Below are positions 4,533 through 59,328 of a stretch of 64,000 nt of DNA, in pieces. This DNA is from Minisyncoccota bacterium (GTDB lineage: Bacteria; Patescibacteriota; Minisyncoccia; Phycocordibacterales; SBAW01). The position numbers and the translations under genes are program-made. The notes under the pieces are model-generated. The model was not told the DNA's origin. It worked only from the letters and a program-made list of their open reading frames with translations, and searched no databases. Position 1 is the first letter of the stretch. Each line of letters begins with the position of its first letter. The DNA is taken from NCBI GenBank assembly GCA_018060985.1, contig JAGOUZ010000003.1, positions 47,356 to 111,355 on the forward strand. Reading direction: 5' to 3'.

Positions 4533-4913
4533 ATGATCCAACCTCAGACTATAGTCGTCATAGCAGACAACTCCGGAGCAAAGCTCGGACGCATTTTCAA
4601 AGTGCTCGGCAGCTCAAAGAAGCGCTATGCGCAGATCGGTGAGATTGTCGTGCTTTCCGTACAGACGGCAGAGCCTCGCAAAGCGGTTAAAAAGAAGGAC
4701 GTGCTCCGCGCTGTAGTGGTGCGCCAGAAGCAGGCATTCCGCCGCAAAGACGGTTCATATATTCGCTTTGATGAAAATGCAGTCGTCATCATTGAAGGAG
4801 CTGGCAAGAATGCACACGAGCCAAAGGCAGGACGCATCTTCGGTCCTATACCGCGCGAGCTCCAGGACCTTGGCTACCAGACCATTATTTCTCGTGCGCC
4901 TGAAGTCGTATAA
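4533..4913 (+). CDS. rplN: 50S ribosomal protein L14
   Basis: MIQPQTIVVIADNSGAK... L14. Confidence 0.95.
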   Translation: MIQPQTIVVIADNSGAKLGRIFKVLGSSKKRYAQIGEIVVLSVQTAEPRKAVKKKDVLRAVVVRQKQAFRRKDGSYIRFDENAVVIIEGAGKNAHEPKAGRIFGPIPRELQDLGYQTIISRAPEVV

Positions 4914-4917
4914 ATGT

Positions 4918-5175
4918 ATGAATACTCTCCACGTTAAAAAAGGCGACACTGTAGTGGTAATCTCCGGTGTACACAAAGGTAAGACCGGCAAGATAGTAGA
5001 GGCAATGCCAAAGCTCGGCCTCGTACTTGTAGAAGGTGTTGGCATGGTTAAAAAGCACCAGCGCCCTCGCCGCGACGGTCAGAAGGGTCAGATTATCGAC
5101 AAGCATGTGCCGATCCGCGCAAGCAAGGTTATGAATGTTGCGCTTCAGAAAGAGCGTGCAAAGAAGAAAAAATAG
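4918..5175 (+). CDS. rplX: 50S ribosomal protein L24
   Basis: KOW motif LHVKKGDTVVVISGVHKGKTGKI; start at ATG 4918 just after the rplN stop. Confidence 0.9.
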   Translation: MNTLHVKKGDTVVVISGVHKGKTGKIVEAMPKLGLVLVEGVGMVKKHQRPRRDGQKGQIIDKHVPIRASKVMNVALQKERAKKKK

Positions 5176-5178
5176 TAT

Positions 5179-5724
5179 ATGGCTACCACAAAACTTTTAC
5201 AGGACCAGCAGAAGTCAGCTTTTAAAGATCTCAAAGACACCTTTGGGTGGACTAACTCTATGCAGACGCCCCGCATCGAAAAGGTGGTTGTCTCGGTTGG
5301 CGTTGGCAAGATGGCAAAAGAGAAGGGCCGTCAGGATATGGTGGCAAACCGCCTCTCAAAGATTACCGGCCAGAAGGCAGCTACTCGCGGTGCCAAGAAG
5401 GCTATTGCAACCTTTAAGACCCGCATCGGTGACCGTGTTGGCTACCAGGTAACGCTCCGTGGCGCACGTGCACAGGACTTTTTGAACCGCCTCGTGCACA
5501 TCGCACTCCCTCGCACCAAAGACTTCCGCGGCATCTCTGCCGATGCTATTGATGAGATGGGTAACTACACTCTTGGTATTAAAGAAAACACGGTGTTTCC
5601 AGAAACTGCAGACGAAGAACTTAAGGATGTGTTTGGTATGGCAGTAACGATTGTGACAACCGCTAAGAACAAGGCAGAGGCAAAGGCCTACCTAACCCAC
5701 CTCGGGTTTCCGTTTAAGAAATAA
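5179..5724 (+). CDS. rplE: 50S ribosomal protein L5
   Basis: 181-aa L5-like ORF. Confidence 0.95.
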   Translation: MATTKLLQDQQKSAFKDLKDTFGWTNSMQTPRIEKVVVSVGVGKMAKEKGRQDMVANRLSKITGQKAATRGAKKAIATFKTRIGDRVGYQVTLRGARAQDFLNRLVHIALPRTKDFRGISADAIDEMGNYTLGIKENTVFPETADEELKDVFGMAVTIVTTAKNKAEAKAYLTHLGFPFKK

Positions 5725-5740
5725 TCAGACGGGATACAAG

Positions 5741-5776
5741 AAAGGCCTTGCGGTTCATTCCGCAAGGCCTTTTTTC
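5741..5776. terminator. bidirectional hairpin/terminator after rplE
   Basis: AAAGGCCTTGCGG-ttcattc-CCGCAAGGCCTTTTTT; the stop codon of the antisense ORF lies in its loop. Confidence 0.6.
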
Positions 5777-6036
5777 ATCAGTCGCTCAGCTTCTGCTCGA
5801 TCCACTTCGTATCCCGAGAAACACTCGACAGGGCCATAGTCGAGGAGGCAGACACAGGTATCTTTATCACCGCAGTACTCCTCGTCGAAGGCCCAGGCGA
5901 TATAACGCCCGTCACTGGTGAGCATTAGGTGGTCTCCTTGGTGGTGCTCGGGCAGCAAGCAGGGAGGGAAGTCGTCCCCCTCACGCATGTACATTACTTC
6001 GAAGAAGGGTATGAGAATTCCGCAGGTTTCTCGCAT
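5755..6036 (-). CDS. hypothetical small Cys/His-containing protein encoded antisense inside the r-protein cluster
   Basis: 93-aa ORF MRETCGILIPFFEVMYMREGDDFPPCLLPEHHQGDH...CGDKDTCVCLLDYGPVECFSGYE with GGGAG SD-like element 7 nt upstream; G/C-ending codon usage unlike flanking r-protein genes; occupies the atypical 515-bp rplE-rpsN gap (ORF track extends it to 6270). Confidence 0.35.
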   Translation of the reverse strand: MRETCGILIPFFEVMYMREGDDFPPCLLPEHHQGDHLMLTSDGRYIAWAFDEEYCGDKDTCVCLLDYGPVECFSGYEVDRAEAERLMKKGLAE

Positions 6037-24682: not shown

Positions 24683-24727
24683 CAAAAGACAGAAAGACCT
24701 GCCCTGCGGCAGGTTTTCTGCTTTTGT
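24683..24727 (+). terminator. hairpin/terminator after tRNA-Ile
   Basis: CACAAAAGACAGAAAGACCUGCC-cugc-GGCAGGUUUUCUGCUUUUGUG long imperfect hairpin with U-run. Confidence 0.5.
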
Positions 24728-24810
24728 GGGAGGCGGAGCGATGTTTTGCAATTGCAAAACCGCGAGCCGGGGTCGCGGGCGACTTTGCTGACGAGCAAAG
24801 TTGACCTGTG
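24697..24810 (+). mobile_element. miniature insertion at the 3' end of tRNA-Ile (copy 2), flanked by a direct repeat of the tRNA 3' terminus
   Basis: CCCACAAAAGACAGAAAG (24679-24696) repeated as ACCACATAAAGACAGAAAA (24811-24829); contains the core GGCGGAGCGATG-TTTTGCAATTGCAAAA-CCGCGAGCCGGGGTCGCG, 43/45 identical to copy 1. Confidence 0.4.
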
Positions 24811-50072: not shown

Positions 50073-50144
50073 CGCGGGGTGGAGCAGTAGTAGCTCGCCA
50101 GGCTCATAACCTGGAGGTCGGGGGTGCAAGTCCCTCCCCCGCAA
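50073..50144 (+). tRNA. initiator tRNA-fMet, anticodon CAU
   Basis: C1:A72 mismatch (CGCGGGG/CCCCGCA) typical of bacterial initiator; anticodon loop CUCAUAA; terminator hairpin 50158-50180. Confidence 0.8.
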
Positions 50145-50293
50145 CAGACATTCGTAAGGGTCCGCTTAGGCGGACTTTTGCGTTGAAGAAAAAGGTGAAA
50201 AATGATAGCGTAGTGCTATTGTCGGGATAAGCAAAGCTTGCCCCGACGGCATTCGGACTAAAAGCACACGAGTGCGCTTTTAGCTCCTCATTT

Positions 50294-50367
50294 GTCGGGG
50301 TAGCTCAGCTGGTAAGAGCGTAGCATTCATAACGCTAAGGTCGTGGGTTCGACTCCCACCCTCGACA
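50294..50367 (+). tRNA. tRNA with CAU anticodon (elongator Met or Ile2/lysidine)
   Basis: Acceptor GUCGGGG/CCUCGAC, loop UUCAUAA, T-loop UUCGACU; A31:C39 mismatch in the anticodon stem. Confidence 0.75.
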
Positions 50368-50494
50368 CCCGTTTCGCTTTAACGCCTTTTGCGTTAAGAT
50401 ACGGACGTTCGAAACAGTTTGCGGGGTAAGCATAGCTTGCTCCCGCGGCATTCGACGGCATAATGAACGAGTTCATTCTGTTCGGTTCTCATTT

Positions 50495-50569
50495 GCGGGA
50501 GTAGCTCAATTTGGTTAGAGCGCGTCCCTGTCACGGACGAGGTTGCGGGTTCAAGTCCCGTCTCTCGCG
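50495..50569 (+). tRNA. tRNA-Asp, anticodon GUC
   Basis: Acceptor GCGGGAG/CUCUCGC, anticodon loop CUGUCAC, T-loop UUCAAGU. Confidence 0.85.
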
Positions 50570-50594
50570 CAAATTCACATGATAAAATAGGGGT

Positions 50595-50732
50595 ATGGAC
50601 GCCATCACCAACATACTCACGATGCTCCTTAACTTTTTGTTGAGTTTTTTGGAGCTGTTTATAAACTTTATAATCACTGCGCTCACCATGGTGCTTAATT
50701 TTGTTAAGGCGATAGTTGGTACTGTGGTCTAG
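50595..50732 (+). CDS. hypothetical 45-aa hydrophobic peptide
   Basis: MDAITNILTMLLNFLLSFLELFINFIITALTMVLNFVKAIVGTVV; 2 nt upstream of the next ORF. Confidence 0.3.
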   Translation: MDAITNILTMLLNFLLSFLELFINFIITALTMVLNFVKAIVGTVV

Positions 50733-50734
50733 TC

Positions 50735-51037
50735 ATGCGTATGTCTAAAAAGTCCCGAATTATAGTCGCAGTGGTGTGGGGGATACTGACGCTGCCCACC
50801 GCGTTTTTTGCCATGGTGCTCTTTGGATTGGCTCGTATGGATACGGGCTCTGTAAACCCTGAGCCGCAGTTACTTGCACTGTGGGCACTGCCTGTCGTGC
50901 TCCTCGTTTCTTGCATTGCAGAACTTATGCTTGCACGCGGGGCTGATACCCGCAGCAAAGCTGGGCTTGCAAAAGTCTTCGCTTTTTTACCGGTAGGGAA
51001 TATTCTTATAATCGCAGTACTTATTTTGGCTCGGTGA
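50735..51037 (+). CDS. hypothetical small membrane protein (100 aa)
   Basis: Three predicted TM helices. Confidence 0.45.
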   Translation: MRMSKKSRIIVAVVWGILTLPTAFFAMVLFGLARMDTGSVNPEPQLLALWALPVVLLVSCIAELMLARGADTRSKAGLAKVFAFLPVGNILIIAVLILAR

Positions 51038-51180
51038 GCGATTGAAAAAAGCCTTAAAATACGCTACTCTGCGGAAGTTACTTGTTTGTCGTGCACATAT
51101 CCGCCGTTGTAAGCAAAGCTTGCAACGACTGCATTCGTAAAAAATGAAAATATAGGATATTCTCATTTTGTTACTCATTT

Positions 51181-51253
51181 GCCGTTGTAGCTCAGTTGGT
51201 AGAGCAACGCCATGGTAAGGCGTAGGTCGCCGGTTCGATTCCGGCCAACGGCT
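51181..51253 (+). tRNA. tRNA-Thr, anticodon GGU
   Basis: Acceptor GCCGUUG/CAACGGC, loop AUGGUAA, T-loop UUCGAUU; CCA encoded (51254-51256). Confidence 0.85.
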
Positions 51254-51258
51254 CCAGG

Positions 51259-51285
51259 CCAGAGTAGCTCAGTTGGATGAACAGC
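51259..51285 (+). pseudogene. tRNA 5' fragment (acceptor 5' strand plus D-arm remnant)
   Basis: GCCAGAGTAGCTCAGTTGG matches tRNA-Thr(CGU) 5' end 18/19, then diverges into a 110-nt hairpin-rich segment. Confidence 0.4.
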
Positions 51286-51392
51286 AAACTGCTTTGCGGT
51301 TCATCCGATTCTGCTTTGCAGAAACGGCTGTTGTTCATTATTATGAACCGGCAGTAGGAGGGACGAGCGGCGCCTATTTTAGTTGCGTGAGA

Positions 51393-51465
51393 GCCGGAGT
51401 AGCTCAGTTGGTAGAGCGGCGGTATCGTAAACCGCAGGTCGCCGGTTCAATCCCGGCCTCCGGCT
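51393..51465 (+). tRNA. tRNA-Thr, anticodon CGU
   Basis: Acceptor GCCGGAG/CUCCGGC, loop AUCGUAA, T-loop UUCAAUC. Confidence 0.85.
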
Positions 51466-51471
51466 CTCACG

Positions 51472-51514
51472 TTGGTAAACCGCAGGTCGAGGGTTCCCCG
51501 GCCTCTGGCTCCGA
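51472..51514 (+). pseudogene. degenerate duplicate of the tRNA-Thr 3' half
   Basis: GTTGGTAAACCGCAGGTC-GAGGGTTCCCCGGC-CTCTGGC-TCC parallels GGTAAACCGCAGGTC-GCCGGTTCAATCCCGGC-CTCCGGC of the intact gene; its acceptor strand CTCTGGC complements the upstream 5' fragment GCCAGAG. Confidence 0.5.
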
Positions 51515-51571
51515 ATTTTTATAAAAAGAATGACCGCGGGTCCCTTGGTAGGGGCTCGCGGTCTTATGCGT

Positions 51572-59220: not shown

Positions 59221-59260
59221 GTTGAGAAATAAGGCGTTTTCGGGTATCTTGGTCATGTAT

Positions 59261-59328
59261 TGCTAGATCCACTAATGGTGTATCGGCGATGTAGTGGCAG
59301 GTCCACTAATGGTGTTTTGACGTTATAT
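59261..59328 (+). repeat. two tandem degenerate copies of the tRNA-Gln 5' ~22 nt
   Basis: TTGCTAGATCCACTAATGGTGTA and GTGGCAGGTCCACTAATGGTGTT at 34-nt spacing, then the genuine TTGCCAGATCGTCTAATGGTAGG. Confidence 0.45.

What the first reader, a model, noticed from the sequence alone, without database searches (positions are those of the whole stretch)
50221..51180. Hairpins that copy the acceptor stem of the downstream tRNA, ~75 nt upstream of three different tRNA genes
- E1 (50221-50258) reads GTCGGGA-TAAGCAAAGCTTGC-CCCGAC-GGCATTCGGAC. It precedes tRNA(CAU) at 50294, whose acceptor stem is GTCGGGG/CCTCGAC.
- E2 (50421-50458) reads GCGGGG-TAAGCATAGCTTGC-TCCCGC-GGCATTCGACGG. It precedes tRNA-Asp at 50495, whose acceptor stem is GCGGGAG/CTCTCGC.
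- E3 (51103-51138) reads GCCGTTG-TAAGCAAAGCTTG-CAACGAC-TGCATTCG. It precedes tRNA-Thr(GGU) at 51181, whose acceptor stem is GCCGTTG/CAACGGC.
- The 13-14-nt loop and the trailing GCATTCG are conserved. The stem changes completely each time so as to match the acceptor stem of the tRNA that follows.
- Each hairpin is followed by a second hairpin of conserved structure but different sequence, then the octamer CTCATTTG abutting the tRNA 5' end.
- The pattern is a tRNA 'ghost' or minihelix: acceptor strands joined by a short loop, followed by a tRNA-like 3' trailer (tRNA-fMet is followed by a similar GACATTCG).
- Possible functions (inference): a leader-borne minihelix acting as a processing or decoy substrate (RNase P, CCA-adding enzyme, aaRS); an alternative pairing partner for pre-tRNA acceptor strands; or a footprint of a tRNA-end-copying mechanism.
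- I do not recognise this as a described feature.
Basis: seen in the sequence. Interest (0 to 1): 0.8.

Follow-up and report, generated by a model that had tools for sequence, protein, structure and literature searches.

The report
Small repeat lodged in tRNA gene starts
The three "acceptor-stem ghost" hairpins are real. They are copies of an apparently undescribed ~75-base non-coding repeat of Candidate Phyla Radiation bacteria that sits in the first bases of tRNA genes and carries a replacement copy of the tRNA's first seven bases plus their complement.

Summary
**Observation:** confirmed. The window holds three units, with none expected by chance.

**Unit layout:** TAAGCANAGCTTG, then 7 nt (E3'), N, GCATTCG, a variable hairpin, CTCATTT, then tRNA nt 1-7.

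- E3' is the Watson-Crick complement of the tRNA 5' strand, not a copy of its 3' strand.
- At all 16 G·U positions in 39 tRNA-linked copies, E3' carries the complement of the 5' strand.
- The discriminator base matches in only 8 of 39.

**Distribution:**
- The same unit occurs in more than 100 CPR/Patescibacteria contigs and in front of 12 tRNA families.
- It also occurs away from tRNAs, in both orientations, in tandem arrays and nested inside itself.
- The 7+7 pairing is kept in all these settings.

**Close relatives of this genome:**
- Some show clean empty sites.
- One orthologous copy has decayed conserved blocks.
- One copy has had its central hairpin swapped with that of another copy.

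**Best reading (about 0.5):** a non-autonomous, mobile-type repeat that lodges at X|TA(G) sites, where X equals its own last seven bases.
- The tRNA keeps working because the unit supplies a new 5' strand behind a leader that looks RNase P-friendly (inferred, not tested).
- The "ghost" hairpin is the stranded old 5' strand paired with the unit's internal complement.

**Open:** the mobilising machinery and any RNA-level role are unknown.

The parts
50221..50227 (+). E1 left arm GTCGGGA: stranded copy of tRNA(CAU) nt 1-7 (6/7)
   Evidence: The empty orthologous site in L132 reads ...ctatt|GTCGGGG|TAGCTC.
50228..50300 (+). Unit 1 (cap block to tRNA nt 7): cap TAAGCAAAGCTTG 50228-50240; E3' CCCCGAC 50241-50247; G 50248; GCATTCG 50249-50255; hairpin 50255-50287; CTCATTT 50287-50293; X = GTCGGGG 50294-50300
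   Evidence: 69.7 bits over 50228-50302. E3' is the 7/7 WC complement of X.
50294..50367 (+). tRNA(CAU), Ile2/elongator type; its first 7 nt double as the right arm of unit 1
50421..50426 (+). E2 left arm GCGGGG (6 nt; one base missing relative to GCGGGAG)
   Evidence: The same 6-nt arm is present in the orthologous copies of L132 and L133.
50427..50501 (+). Unit 2: cap TAAGCATAGCTTG 50427-50439; E3' CTCCCGC 50440-50446; G 50447; GCATTCG 50448-50454; hairpin 50454-50488 (weak); CTCATTT 50488-50494; X = GCGGGAG 50495-50501
   Evidence: 65 bits over 50427-50503. E3' is 7/7 complementary to X.
50495..50569 (+). tRNA-Asp(GUC)
51103..51109 (+). E3 left arm GCCGTTG (7/7 identical to tRNA-Thr nt 1-7)
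   Evidence: Empty orthologous sites in L135, L137 and L138.
51110..51187 (+). Unit 3: cap TAAGCAAAGCTTG 51110-51122; E3' CAACGAC 51123-51129; T 51130; GCATTCG 51131-51137; hairpin 51137-51174; CTCATTT 51174-51180; X = GCCGTTG 51181-51187
   Evidence: 75.2 bits over 51110-51189. Its GCATTCG-hairpin-CTCATTT part is 46/50 identical to that of the tRNA-Asp copy in relative L133.
51181..51253 (+). tRNA-Thr(GGU)
50195..50217 (+). Possible promoter for the unit 1 + tRNA(CAU) transcript, read by eye: TTGAAG, 17 nt, TAGCGT, ending about 4 nt before the E1 left arm. Inference only.
   Evidence: Read; not found by the consensus scan. L132 has TTGACG...TATAGT at the corresponding place upstream of the uninterrupted tRNA. 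-10-like hexamers lie 3-13 nt upstream of the left arm in 13 of 50 unit-bearing tRNAs and of +1 in 23 of 68 unit-free tRNAs.

Best explanation
Each hairpin is one end of a ~75-nt non-coding repeat unit.

**Layout:** [TAAGCANAGCTTG cap hairpin] - [E3', 7 nt] - N - [GCRTTCG] - [variable 12-15 bp hairpin] - [CTCAYTT] - [X, 7 nt, complementary to E3'], followed by TA(G).

**What it is.** The unit behaves as a non-autonomous, mobile-type repeat of Patescibacteria. It is found inserted immediately 5' of a TA(G). In most cases it lies directly after a sequence identical to its own terminal heptamer X. The G7|U8-A9-G10 junction of tRNA genes is the commonest such site.

**What insertion does there.**
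- It strands the gene's original first seven bases just downstream of the promoter. This is the left arm of the 'ghost'.
- It places the unit's own X in front of the tRNA body, so the gene stays intact.
- The new 5' end is preceded by CTCAYTT. This has A at -4 and U at -1, which from my own knowledge of leader preferences of bacterial RNase P would be a good RNase P leader. RNase P trimming would then discard the unit together with the old 5' strand.
- The ghost hairpin is therefore a by-product: the old 5' strand pairing with the unit's internal complement E3' through the cap hairpin.

**Shown**
- The unit's boundaries and structure.
- The X/E3' complementarity rule, with or without a tRNA.
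- Presence/absence at orthologous sites.
- Nesting, tandem arrays and both orientations.
- Exchange of the central cassette between copies.
- Decay in situ.

**Inferred**
- That it moves by recombination or guide-like pairing needing identity at X+TA.
- That RNase P matures the tRNA from the unit-borne leader.
- That it is neutral or selfish for the host.
- That copies are lost precisely through the 9-nt direct repeats.
For: 1. **The general rule.** In 78 of 95 non-identical copies, E3' has a >=6/7 WC complement downstream. In those copies it is mostly preceded by CTCAYTT and followed by TAG (62) or TAA (11). Shuffled E3' gives 16 of 95. P1 is 91.6% paired, with 7 of 8 pairs changing on both sides.
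2. **The rule holds without tRNAs.** Examples are the CTCGCAC/GTGCGAG family in heptamer arrays, CTTTGAC/GTCAAAG, and AAATTGC/GCAATTA.
3. **E3' is the complement of the 5' strand.** This holds at 16 of 16 tRNA G·U positions, and the discriminator matches in 8 of 39.
4. **Insertion polymorphisms.**
   - L132 (neighbour protein 91% identical) has ...ctatt|GTCGGGG|TAGCTC where the window has unit 1.
   - L135, L137 and L138 lack all three units.
   - A 73-nt unit sits inside the hairpin of another at GA|TA|GAAAA in L123 but not in L057.
   - The L030 array is empty where L042 is filled.
5. **Repeat behaviour.**
   - One MAG has at least 8 copies, in both orientations, tandem and nested.
   - Arrays of 2-3 units occur.
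   - About 40% of unit-bearing tRNAs have another unit upstream.
   - Non-tRNA copies have no fixed orientation to neighbouring ORFs.
   - The same unit sits in front of three tRNA-Arg isoacceptors that share GCCCCCG.
6. **No constraint in situ.** The L132 Asp copy has degraded blocks (38 vs 65 bits). The L133 Asp copy keeps its arms but carries the window Thr copy's cassette (46/50). hp2 identical at 85-100% occurs with different arms elsewhere.
7. **Position relative to the promoter.** The left arm sits where a tRNA 5' end would sit.
8. **Restricted range.** All real genome hits are CPR MAGs, there are no viral hits, and there is no Rfam family.
Against: - No mobilising protein, circle junction or autonomous partner was found. 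There were no far-spaced ends within 4 kb.
- The unit has no terminal inverted repeats beyond the 7-nt arms.
- How a unit acquires arms that fit a new tRNA is unexplained. A unit with foreign arms inserted at 7|8 would inactivate the gene.
- In one abundant family (GTGCGAG) and in the nested case, the left flank does not equal X. The 'homing to X' rule is therefore not universal.
- The conserved blocks are near-identical across deep CPR lineages, and the helices covary (cap: AAGC/GCTT, AAGT/ACTT, AAAC/GTTT, AAGA/TCTT; R/Y of the two blocks). This pattern is equally what a functional RNA would show.
- Absence in relatives can be precise loss rather than lack of gain. The copy in front of tRNA(CAU) recurs widely (11 of 19 Met-CAU genes sampled).
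- No transcript data were available.
Confidence: 0.5

Rival explanations
1. **Cis-acting leader RNA.** The unit is transcribed with the tRNA. It acts in maturation or control in one of two ways. Either it forms a 12-bp minihelix that RNase P, RNase Z or the CCA-adding enzyme recognises (decoy or processing punctuation). Or it acts as a built-in external guide: cap hairpin + E3' + N pairing with the tRNA 5' strand to present a cleavage site after CTCAYTT.
For: - Variable, covarying helices lie around invariant unpaired blocks.
- The helix is 12 bp.
- T·G closes the cap in all 67 copies, and G·T flanks P1 on the sense strand.
- The leader has A(-4) and U(-1).
- The unit always lies on the tRNA's sense strand and downstream of promoter-like hexamers.
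- It is conserved across deep CPR lineages.
Against: - Relatives have empty orthologous sites, and most tRNAs in the same genome lack the unit.
- The blocks decay in situ.
- Copies lie far from any tRNA and antisense to neighbouring genes.
- P1 has 3 G·T against 13 A·C mismatches, and the reverse strand folds better in 48 of 58. This is not the signature of a sense-RNA helix under selection.
- Identity elements (Ala G3·U70, the discriminator) are not kept, so an aaRS decoy is unlikely.
- Predicted precursor folds follow no uniform rule.
Confidence: 0.2
2. **Structure-specific recombination site.** The folded unit (P1, internal loop, variable hairpin) would be a single-strand recombination substrate, as integron attC sites are. 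The GCRTTCG...CTCAYTT cassette would be the exchanged part.
For: - The cassette has been exchanged between copies while the arms stay put (L133 Asp vs window Thr, 46/50).
- The architecture (paired arms, conserved unpaired spacer, variable terminal stem-loop) resembles attC.
- There is an A·C excess on the sense strand.
Against: - No recombinase or cassette genes are associated with the unit.
- The attC R''/R' consensus is absent.
- The exchange can be ordinary gene conversion between paralogous repeats.
- Conserved sense-strand G·T pairs argue against a purely bottom-strand fold.
Confidence: 0.1
3. **Relic of tandem tRNA duplication.** The upstream tRNA copy would have collapsed to its two acceptor strands (a pseudo-tRNA), and the spacer would be an ordinary inter-tRNA spacer.
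For: - The unit order mimics tRNA 3' end, spacer, tRNA 5' end.
- tRNA fragments and interrupted tRNA copies are common in these genomes.
- tRNA-fMet is followed by GACATTCG plus a hairpin.
Against: - The same 13-nt cap and both 7-nt blocks recur in front of 12 tRNA families and in many lineages. Independent deletions cannot explain this.
- The 3' arm is not the tRNA 3' strand.
- The spacer part almost never follows a real tRNA: 88 of 98 are preceded by the cap block.
- Copies exist without any tRNA.
Confidence: 0.04
4. **Portable promoter or terminator module.** TTGC of the cap would serve as -35 and the A/T-rich 5' arm of the hairpin as -10. Alternatively the hairpin would act as a terminator.
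For: - TTG is invariant.
- Many copies have TAGAAT, TAATAA or CATAAT-like hexamers 14-19 nt downstream (read by eye).
Against: - The spacing varies from 12 to 19 nt.
- The consensus scan finds no promoter or terminator at the three units.
- The hairpins are A/T-rich and lack a T-run.
- Native -10-like hexamers lie upstream of the left arm.
Confidence: 0.04

Closest known systems
REP/REPIN and other small non-autonomous bacterial repeats (MITEs such as Correia/NEMIS, RUP, ERIC)
   Same: - Tens of bases long and non-coding.
- Multi-copy and intergenic, in both orientations.
- Hairpin-forming with compensatory changes.
- Tandem and nested copies.
- Possible TA duplication at one clean insertion.
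   Different: - No terminal inverted repeats and no REP-type 5' GTAG-plus-stem layout.
- No RAYT or transposase identified.
- The arms are variable and match the flanking target.
- Strong preference for one position inside tRNA genes.
- Blocks conserved across deep lineages.
IS200/IS605-family ends and their miniature derivatives (PATEs), where short internal guide sequences base-pair with the cleavage or target site
   Same: - No inverted terminal repeats.
- Subterminal hairpins.
- Insertion immediately 3' of a specific sequence, without a long duplication.
- An internal segment next to a hairpin is complementary both to the left flank and to the element's last bases.
   Different: - The guide would be 7 nt rather than 4-5.
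- It lies 3' of the left hairpin.
- A single guide would serve both ends.
- The large hairpin varies in sequence.
- No TnpA was found.
- The left flank differs from X in one large family.
Integrative elements that target tRNA genes and carry a replacement tRNA segment
   Same: The insertion leaves the tRNA gene intact because the incoming DNA supplies a copy of the displaced part. The displaced part remains as a direct repeat.
   Different: - Those elements are kilobases long and encode an integrase.
- They replace the 3' part of the gene.
- Here 75 nt with no gene replaces the first 7 nt, and the unit also carries the inverted copy.
RNase P minihelix substrates and external guide sequences (EGS)
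   Same: - A 12-bp acceptor/T-like helix.
- A 3' strand plus one base pairing to a target that is preceded by a single-stranded leader.
- The predicted cleavage site coincides with tRNA +1.
   Different: - No NCCA (GCR instead).
- Guide and target are on one molecule, joined through a hairpin.
- Nothing here shows cleavage.
- Evolutionary behaviour argues against a required role.
Group I intron P1 / internal guide sequence
   Same: The flank's last bases plus U pair with a G-initiated internal guide across a short hairpin. The U·G is invariant in 67 of 67 copies. CPR tRNA genes are known hosts of group I introns (PMC8172020).
   Different: - 75 nt with no catalytic core.
- No terminal G rule.
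- The pairing with the downstream heptamer is the better-kept one.
TIGR arrays (tandem interspaced guide RNA; PMC12045711), also found in CPR
   Same: Tandem units with two short variable segments between conserved motifs; the stem-loop array variants have variable palindromes.
   Different: - TIGR has a 36-nt period, box C/D motifs, 9-nt spacers that do not covary, and an adjacent Tas gene.
- Here the period is ~75-78 nt, there is no box C/D, the two variable segments are mutually complementary, and the units sit at tRNA genes.

Membership tests
tRNA minihelix / tRNA-derived pseudogene | The 3' arm reproduces the tRNA 3' acceptor strand, including wobble pairs and the discriminator | tested here: not met
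   At 16 of 16 G·U positions the arm carries the WC complement of the 5' strand. The discriminator agrees in 8 of 39.
tRNA minihelix / tRNA-derived pseudogene | A 12-bp coaxial helix (7 + 5) closed by a loop | tested here: met
   7 bp + T·G + AAGC/GCTT = 12 bp, with a 3-nt loop
Known RNA family (Rfam 15) | Reaches a family's gathering score | tested here: not met
   Only tRNA and tmRNA hits in the window. Sub-threshold hits in 50140-51540 are chance-level.
MITE (IS630/Tc1-like or other) | Terminal inverted repeats | tested here: not met
   The ends are TAAGCAAAGC... and ...CACTT+X. Only the 7-nt arm is inverted, and it lies 13 nt inside the left end.
MITE (IS630/Tc1-like or other) | Target-site duplication at clean insertions | tested here: inconclusive
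   TA is present at both junctions of the nested insertion. tRNA sites show a 7-9-nt repeat. The GTGCGAG family shows none beyond TA.
Mobile or repetitive element (generic) | Presence/absence at orthologous sites, multiple copies per genome in unrelated contexts, nesting | tested here: met
REP/REPIN | Conserved GTAG 5' of a palindrome; associated RAYT gene | tested here: not met
   (G)TAG lies 3' of the palindrome on the sense strand. No RAYT search was possible; none was noticed in the fetched loci.
IS200/IS605-type end | An internal guide complementary to the left flank and to the element's 3' terminal bases; insertion 3' of the target | tested here: inconclusive
   Met in tRNA-linked and several other families: left flank = X in 83% of positions and E3' complementary in 90%. 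Not met in the GTGCGAG family or the nested copy.
IS200/IS605-type end | Y1 HUH transposase in the genome, or an autonomous relative | not tested
   No autonomous partner within 4 kb of any left end. No proteome-wide scan was done.
Self-cleaving ribozyme (hammerhead and others) | Conserved catalytic core (e.g. CUGAUGA...GAAA) | tested here: not met
   No such core in the consensus, and no Rfam hit.
TIGR array | 36-nt units, box C/D motifs, non-covarying spacers, Tas gene | tested here: not met
   Units are 75-78 nt, the arms covary at 91.6%, and there is no box C/D.
Integron attC | R''/R' core sites (RYYYAAC/GTTRRRY), bottom-strand fold, gene cassette | tested here: not met
   The core sites are absent from the consensus. 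There is no cassette ORF. The strand signal is mixed.
RNase P substrate / natural EGS | Cleaved by RNase P at the 5' side of the paired heptamer | not testable with these tools
   Only the geometry and the leader (A-4, U-1) fit. No biochemical or transcript data.

The most novel reading that the evidence does not exclude
The 7-nt internal complement would be a working guide. There are two forms of this reading.
- **DNA form.** A 75-nt non-coding element chooses its insertion site by base-pairing with the tRNA 5' strand and regenerates that strand. It would be a minimal, re-targetable, self-healing insertion whose folded circular form is a rod capped by the two hairpins.
- **RNA form.** The element is a natural external guide that recruits RNase P. 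It would then behave as an 'intron without ligation' in the 5' end of tRNA genes.
Probability: 0.15. Interest if true: 0.85.

Novelty: new variant of a known kind. Interest (0 to 1): 0.62.

Why it matters
**If the reading is right**
- Small CPR genomes carry a widespread, previously unnoticed repeat that lives inside the 5' end of essential tRNA genes without breaking them.
- It manages this by bringing its own copy of the acceptor 5' strand and a processing-competent leader.

**Consequences**
- It gives a new example of how selfish DNA exploits a universally conserved sequence (G7-U8-A9-G10) and a universal enzyme (RNase P).
- It explains odd tRNA-flanking fragments and contig breaks in CPR assemblies.
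- It matters for annotating tRNA genes and promoters in these genomes.
- It offers a compact natural system in which a 7-nt complement tracks its target.
- If the complement proves to be a true guide, the element would be of interest for programmable insertion or cleavage.

Tried and rejected
- **Rfam.** Gathering and E-value modes on the window and 20 loci gave only tRNA, tmRNA and 5S.
- **Viral contigs.** No copy found.
- **Consensus promoter/terminator scan.** Nothing at the units.
- **Ribozyme cores.** Hammerhead-like cores were looked for by eye in the consensus and are absent.
- **Autonomous partner.** I searched up to 4 kb downstream of each left end for CTCAYTT plus the complement of E3'. 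This found only nested or extended non-coding variants.
- **Strand test for a sense RNA.**
  - The reverse complement folds better, and A·C exceeds G·T inside the helices.
  - Invariant sense-strand G·T pairs flank P1.
  - The result is no usable verdict.
- **'Arms rewritten in concert'.** This idea came from identical hairpins with different arms. I replaced it with the simpler cassette exchange between resident copies once L133 showed orthologous arms with a foreign cassette.
- **Spacer as an ordinary inter-tRNA spacer.** Rejected.
- **TIGR arrays.** Considered and rejected.
- **Orientation of non-tRNA copies to downstream genes.** No rule found.
- **Thiothrix/Thiolinea hits.** Loci L012, L013, L016, L035 and L095 lack the downstream hairpin, CTCAYTT and complementary heptamer, and share near-identical sequence with each other. 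I set them aside as chance matches, probably inside a conserved gene.
- **Literature.** Six searches found no description of the element.
Full report
**1. The observation**

Region 50221-51190 holds three copies of TAAGCAWAGCTTG-N8-GCATTCG, at 50228, 50427 and 51110. No match appeared in 100 shuffles, even with three mismatches allowed.

Each copy is followed by a hairpin and by CTCATTT, which abuts tRNA(CAU), tRNA-Asp and tRNA-Thr(GGU). The other five tRNAs of the window have nothing comparable. A covariance model finds no further copy in the 64 kb: the three score 75, 70 and 65 bits, and the next hit scores 14.9.

The 7 nt before and after the 13-nt block do follow the downstream tRNA. The 3' arm is the exact complement of tRNA nt 1-7 in E1 and E2, and 6/7 in E3. 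Against the other window tRNAs it matches at 0-6/7.

**2. What the hairpin actually copies**

- The 13-nt 'loop' is a small hairpin, T-AAGC-NNN-GCTT-G. With the 7-bp arms it makes a 12-bp helix.
- In E1 and E2 the tRNA's G·U pairs appear as G-C.
- I collected 39 non-identical tRNA-linked copies from other genomes. The 5' arm is 83% identical to the tRNA 5' strand. The 3' arm is 90% complementary to that same strand.
- At all 16 positions where the tRNA stem has G·U, the arm carries the complement of the 5' strand, never the tRNA's own 3' base. tRNA-Ala G3·U70 is never reproduced.
- The base after the arm agrees with the discriminator in 8 of 39.
- Cognate pairing beats every one of 20,000 permutations.

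So the arm is an inverted copy of the 5' strand, not a copy of the acceptor 3' strand.

**3. The element is widespread and has a more general rule**

- An exact-pattern scan of one genome per species returned 13 real hits, all in CPR/Patescibacteria MAGs (Harrisonbacteria, Paceibacterota, 'Saccharibacteria'-labelled bins). Three Thiothrix/Thiolinea loci also matched the pattern but lack every other part of the unit, so I treated them as chance matches.
- The metagenome scan returned 115 stretches. The viral scan returned none.
- Across 95 non-identical copies, the 7 nt after GCTTG (E3') have a >=6/7 Watson-Crick complement downstream in 78. In those copies it is mostly preceded by CTCAYTT and followed by TAG or TAA. 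The shuffled control gives 16.

The unit is therefore: cap hairpin, E3', N, GCRTTCG, variable hairpin (hp2), CTCAYTT, X, then TA(G).

- hp2 is a genuine hairpin in nearly all copies (mean z = -3.6).
- On a gapless 67-sequence alignment, the E3':X helix is 91.6% paired, with 7 of 8 pairs changing on both sides. The outer helix of the 'ghost' hairpin is only about 69% paired.
- The cap hairpin covaries in variants: AAGT/ACTT, AAAC/GTTT, AAGA/TCTT, AGAC/GTCT, AAGCTTG/CAAGCTT.
- The R of GCRTTCG covaries with the Y of CTCAYTT.

**4. The rule holds where there is no tRNA**

- One family (CTCGCAC...GTGCGAG) lies in arrays of TAGNTNA heptamers. Others lie upstream of, between or antisense to protein genes.
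- One MAG has at least eight copies, in both orientations, tandem and nested.
- Units also interrupt D-loops of extra tRNA-Gln and other tRNA copies that sit next to an intact copy.
- In the sampled loci, 58 of 126 non-identical tRNAs carry a unit. These cover Ala, Arg, Asp, Gly, Ile, Lys, Met(CAU), Phe, Pro, Thr, Trp and Val. None was found at Ser, Leu, Gln, His, Cys or Asn.
- About 40% of unit-bearing tRNAs have a second unit upstream. Arrays of up to three occur.

**5. It comes and goes**

The window belongs to a 'Candidatus Pacebacteria' MAG. I used the neighbouring 193-aa protein to fetch orthologous loci.

- **L132**, the closest relative (91% aa identity):
  - Upstream of tRNA(CAU) it has an uninterrupted ...ctatt|GTCGGGG|TAGCTC. 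The window has ...ctatt|GTCGGGA|[unit 1]...GTCGGGG|TAGCTC.
  - Its tRNA-Asp copy is orthologous to E2. It shares the same 6-nt left arm and a 77% identical cassette.
  - That copy has degraded blocks (TAAGTGTAGCTTGT, GCGTTCAG, CTTCACTT) and scores 38 bits.
- **L133** (82%) keeps the Asp arms. Its GCRTTCG-hairpin-CTCAYTT cassette, however, is 46/50 identical to that of the window's Thr copy.
- **L135, L137 and L138** (63%) lack the unit at all three tRNAs.
- **Elsewhere**, a 73-nt unit is present inside the hairpin of another in one contig and absent from its near-identical counterpart. TA is present at both junctions, and the left flank is unrelated to X. A heptamer array is empty in one contig and filled in another.

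These comparisons place the unit's boundaries at TA|AGC... and ...X|TA(G). They show that X travels with the unit.

**6. Reading**

At a tRNA gene the unit lies between nt 7 and U8.

- The seven bases to its left are the gene's original 5' strand. They sit where a tRNA 5' end normally sits relative to -10-like hexamers.
- The functional 5' strand is the unit's own X, preceded by CTCAYTT.
- From my own knowledge of leader preferences of bacterial RNase P, A at -4 and U at -1 are favourable. RNase P should therefore mature the tRNA and discard everything upstream. This is inferred, not shown.
- The 'ghost' hairpin is then the old 5' strand paired with E3' through the cap.
- The 9-nt direct repeat (X+TA) allows tandem amplification and scar-less loss. 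This would explain the patchy distribution. It also means that absence in a relative can be loss.

**What remains open**

- The mobilising machinery is unknown.
- How units come to fit new tRNAs is unexplained. Hopping between tRNAs with identical or near-identical 5' strands is documented: the same unit sits in front of three tRNA-Arg isoacceptors that share GCCCCCG. Many target heptamers differ by only 1-3 bases.
- Templated correction within the two quasi-palindromes could keep the arms matched. This is inference.

**7. Why not a required RNA leader**

The pattern of variable helices and invariant loops is what a functional RNA shows. Sense-strand G·T pairs are invariant at three positions. 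I therefore keep this rival at about 0.2. Against it:

- Orthologous sites are empty, and blocks decay in situ.
- Copies lie far from tRNAs and antisense to genes.
- Identity elements are not kept.
- Inside P1 and hp2, A·C mismatches outnumber G·T, and the reverse strand folds better.
- Predicted precursor folds are not uniform. E1 prefers a swapped pairing, while E3 gives ghost hairpin plus cloverleaf.

**8. Comparison with known systems**

- It works most like a small non-autonomous repeat (REP/MITE class). Its target logic is reminiscent of IS200/IS605 guide pairing and of integrative elements that restore the tRNA gene they enter.
- It fails the defining tests for MITEs (no terminal inverted repeats), REPs, attC sites, TIGR arrays, ribozymes and Rfam families. 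The IS200/IS605-like guide criterion is met in most families but not in all.
- I found no description of it in six literature searches.
- PMC8172020 notes group I introns in CPR tRNAs and divergent RNase P RNAs that often lack the CCA-binding motif. This fits CCA-less trailers but does not bear directly on the element.

**Verdict.** The feature is real and non-random, and I found no prior description of it. It is best filed as a new variant of mobile-type repeat with an unusual, target-matched architecture. Its mechanism is only partly resolved.

Noticed in passing
window 51258-51508: A tRNA-like gene (GCCAGAGTAGCTCAGTTGG...) is interrupted after its D-loop by ~190 nt that contain the intact tRNA-Thr(CGU) at 51393-51466. 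The 3' remainder, (GTTGG)TAAACCGCAGGTCGAGGGTTCCCCGGCCTCTGGCTCC, follows. It looks like a displaced tRNA-Thr(CGU) copy with a nested replacement.
   Followed up: no
window 59258-59328: Two direct partial copies of the 5' part of tRNA-Gln (TGCTAGATCCACTAATGGTG, TGGCAGGTCCACTAATGGTG) lie just upstream of tRNA-Gln(CUG). In other CPR contigs (L053, L083, L103), similar tRNA-Gln 5' fragments are followed by a unit inserted in the D-loop.
   Followed up: partly
window 24727-24810; L132 ~5085-5235; L133 ~5760-5905; L135 ~4800-4930 and ~5640-5775: A second repeat family: a GC-rich ~150-nt element (GGAGCGATGTTTTGCAATTGCAAAACCGCGAG...GCTGACGAGC...) lying just 3' of tRNAs. After tRNA-Asp in relatives it ends in a duplicate of the tRNA 3' end (CCCGTCTCTCGCGCA), like an insertion with target duplication. 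No Rfam hit in the window.
   Followed up: no
window 50148-50190; L137 ~1456-1500: tRNA-fMet is followed by GACATTCG (CGCATTCG in L137), a GC-rich hairpin and a T-run. This is the same heptamer as in the unit, but no unit is present there. It may be coincidence or a shared trailer or terminator motif.
   Followed up: partly
L030 1003-1038, L042, L045, L065, L123: Arrays of TAGGTTA/TAGATAA-type heptamers (3-13 repeats) in intergenic DNA of Saccharibacteria-labelled contigs, both with and without an inserted unit. Their nature is unknown.
   Followed up: partly
L053, L026, L122/L064: Another conserved insert (CTGAAACAGTCTGGGAGACTGTTTCAGAAGGTTG...CAACCTG) interrupts the T-arm region of extra tRNA copies that also carry a D-loop unit. 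It is also found near 5S rRNA in L026. No Rfam family reached threshold.
   Followed up: no
L133 4770-5483; L132 4599-4671: In relatives, the tRNA-fMet to tRNA(CAU) spacer is rearranged. In L133 a 237-aa ORF with no Pfam hit is inserted. In L132 tRNA-fMet is inverted.
   Followed up: no
L002, L009, L057, L123: The palindrome GGGTGTTGAACACCC (and GGGGGTGTTGAACACCCCC) recurs in intergenic DNA next to units. It is a further repeat family in the same genomes.
   Followed up: no
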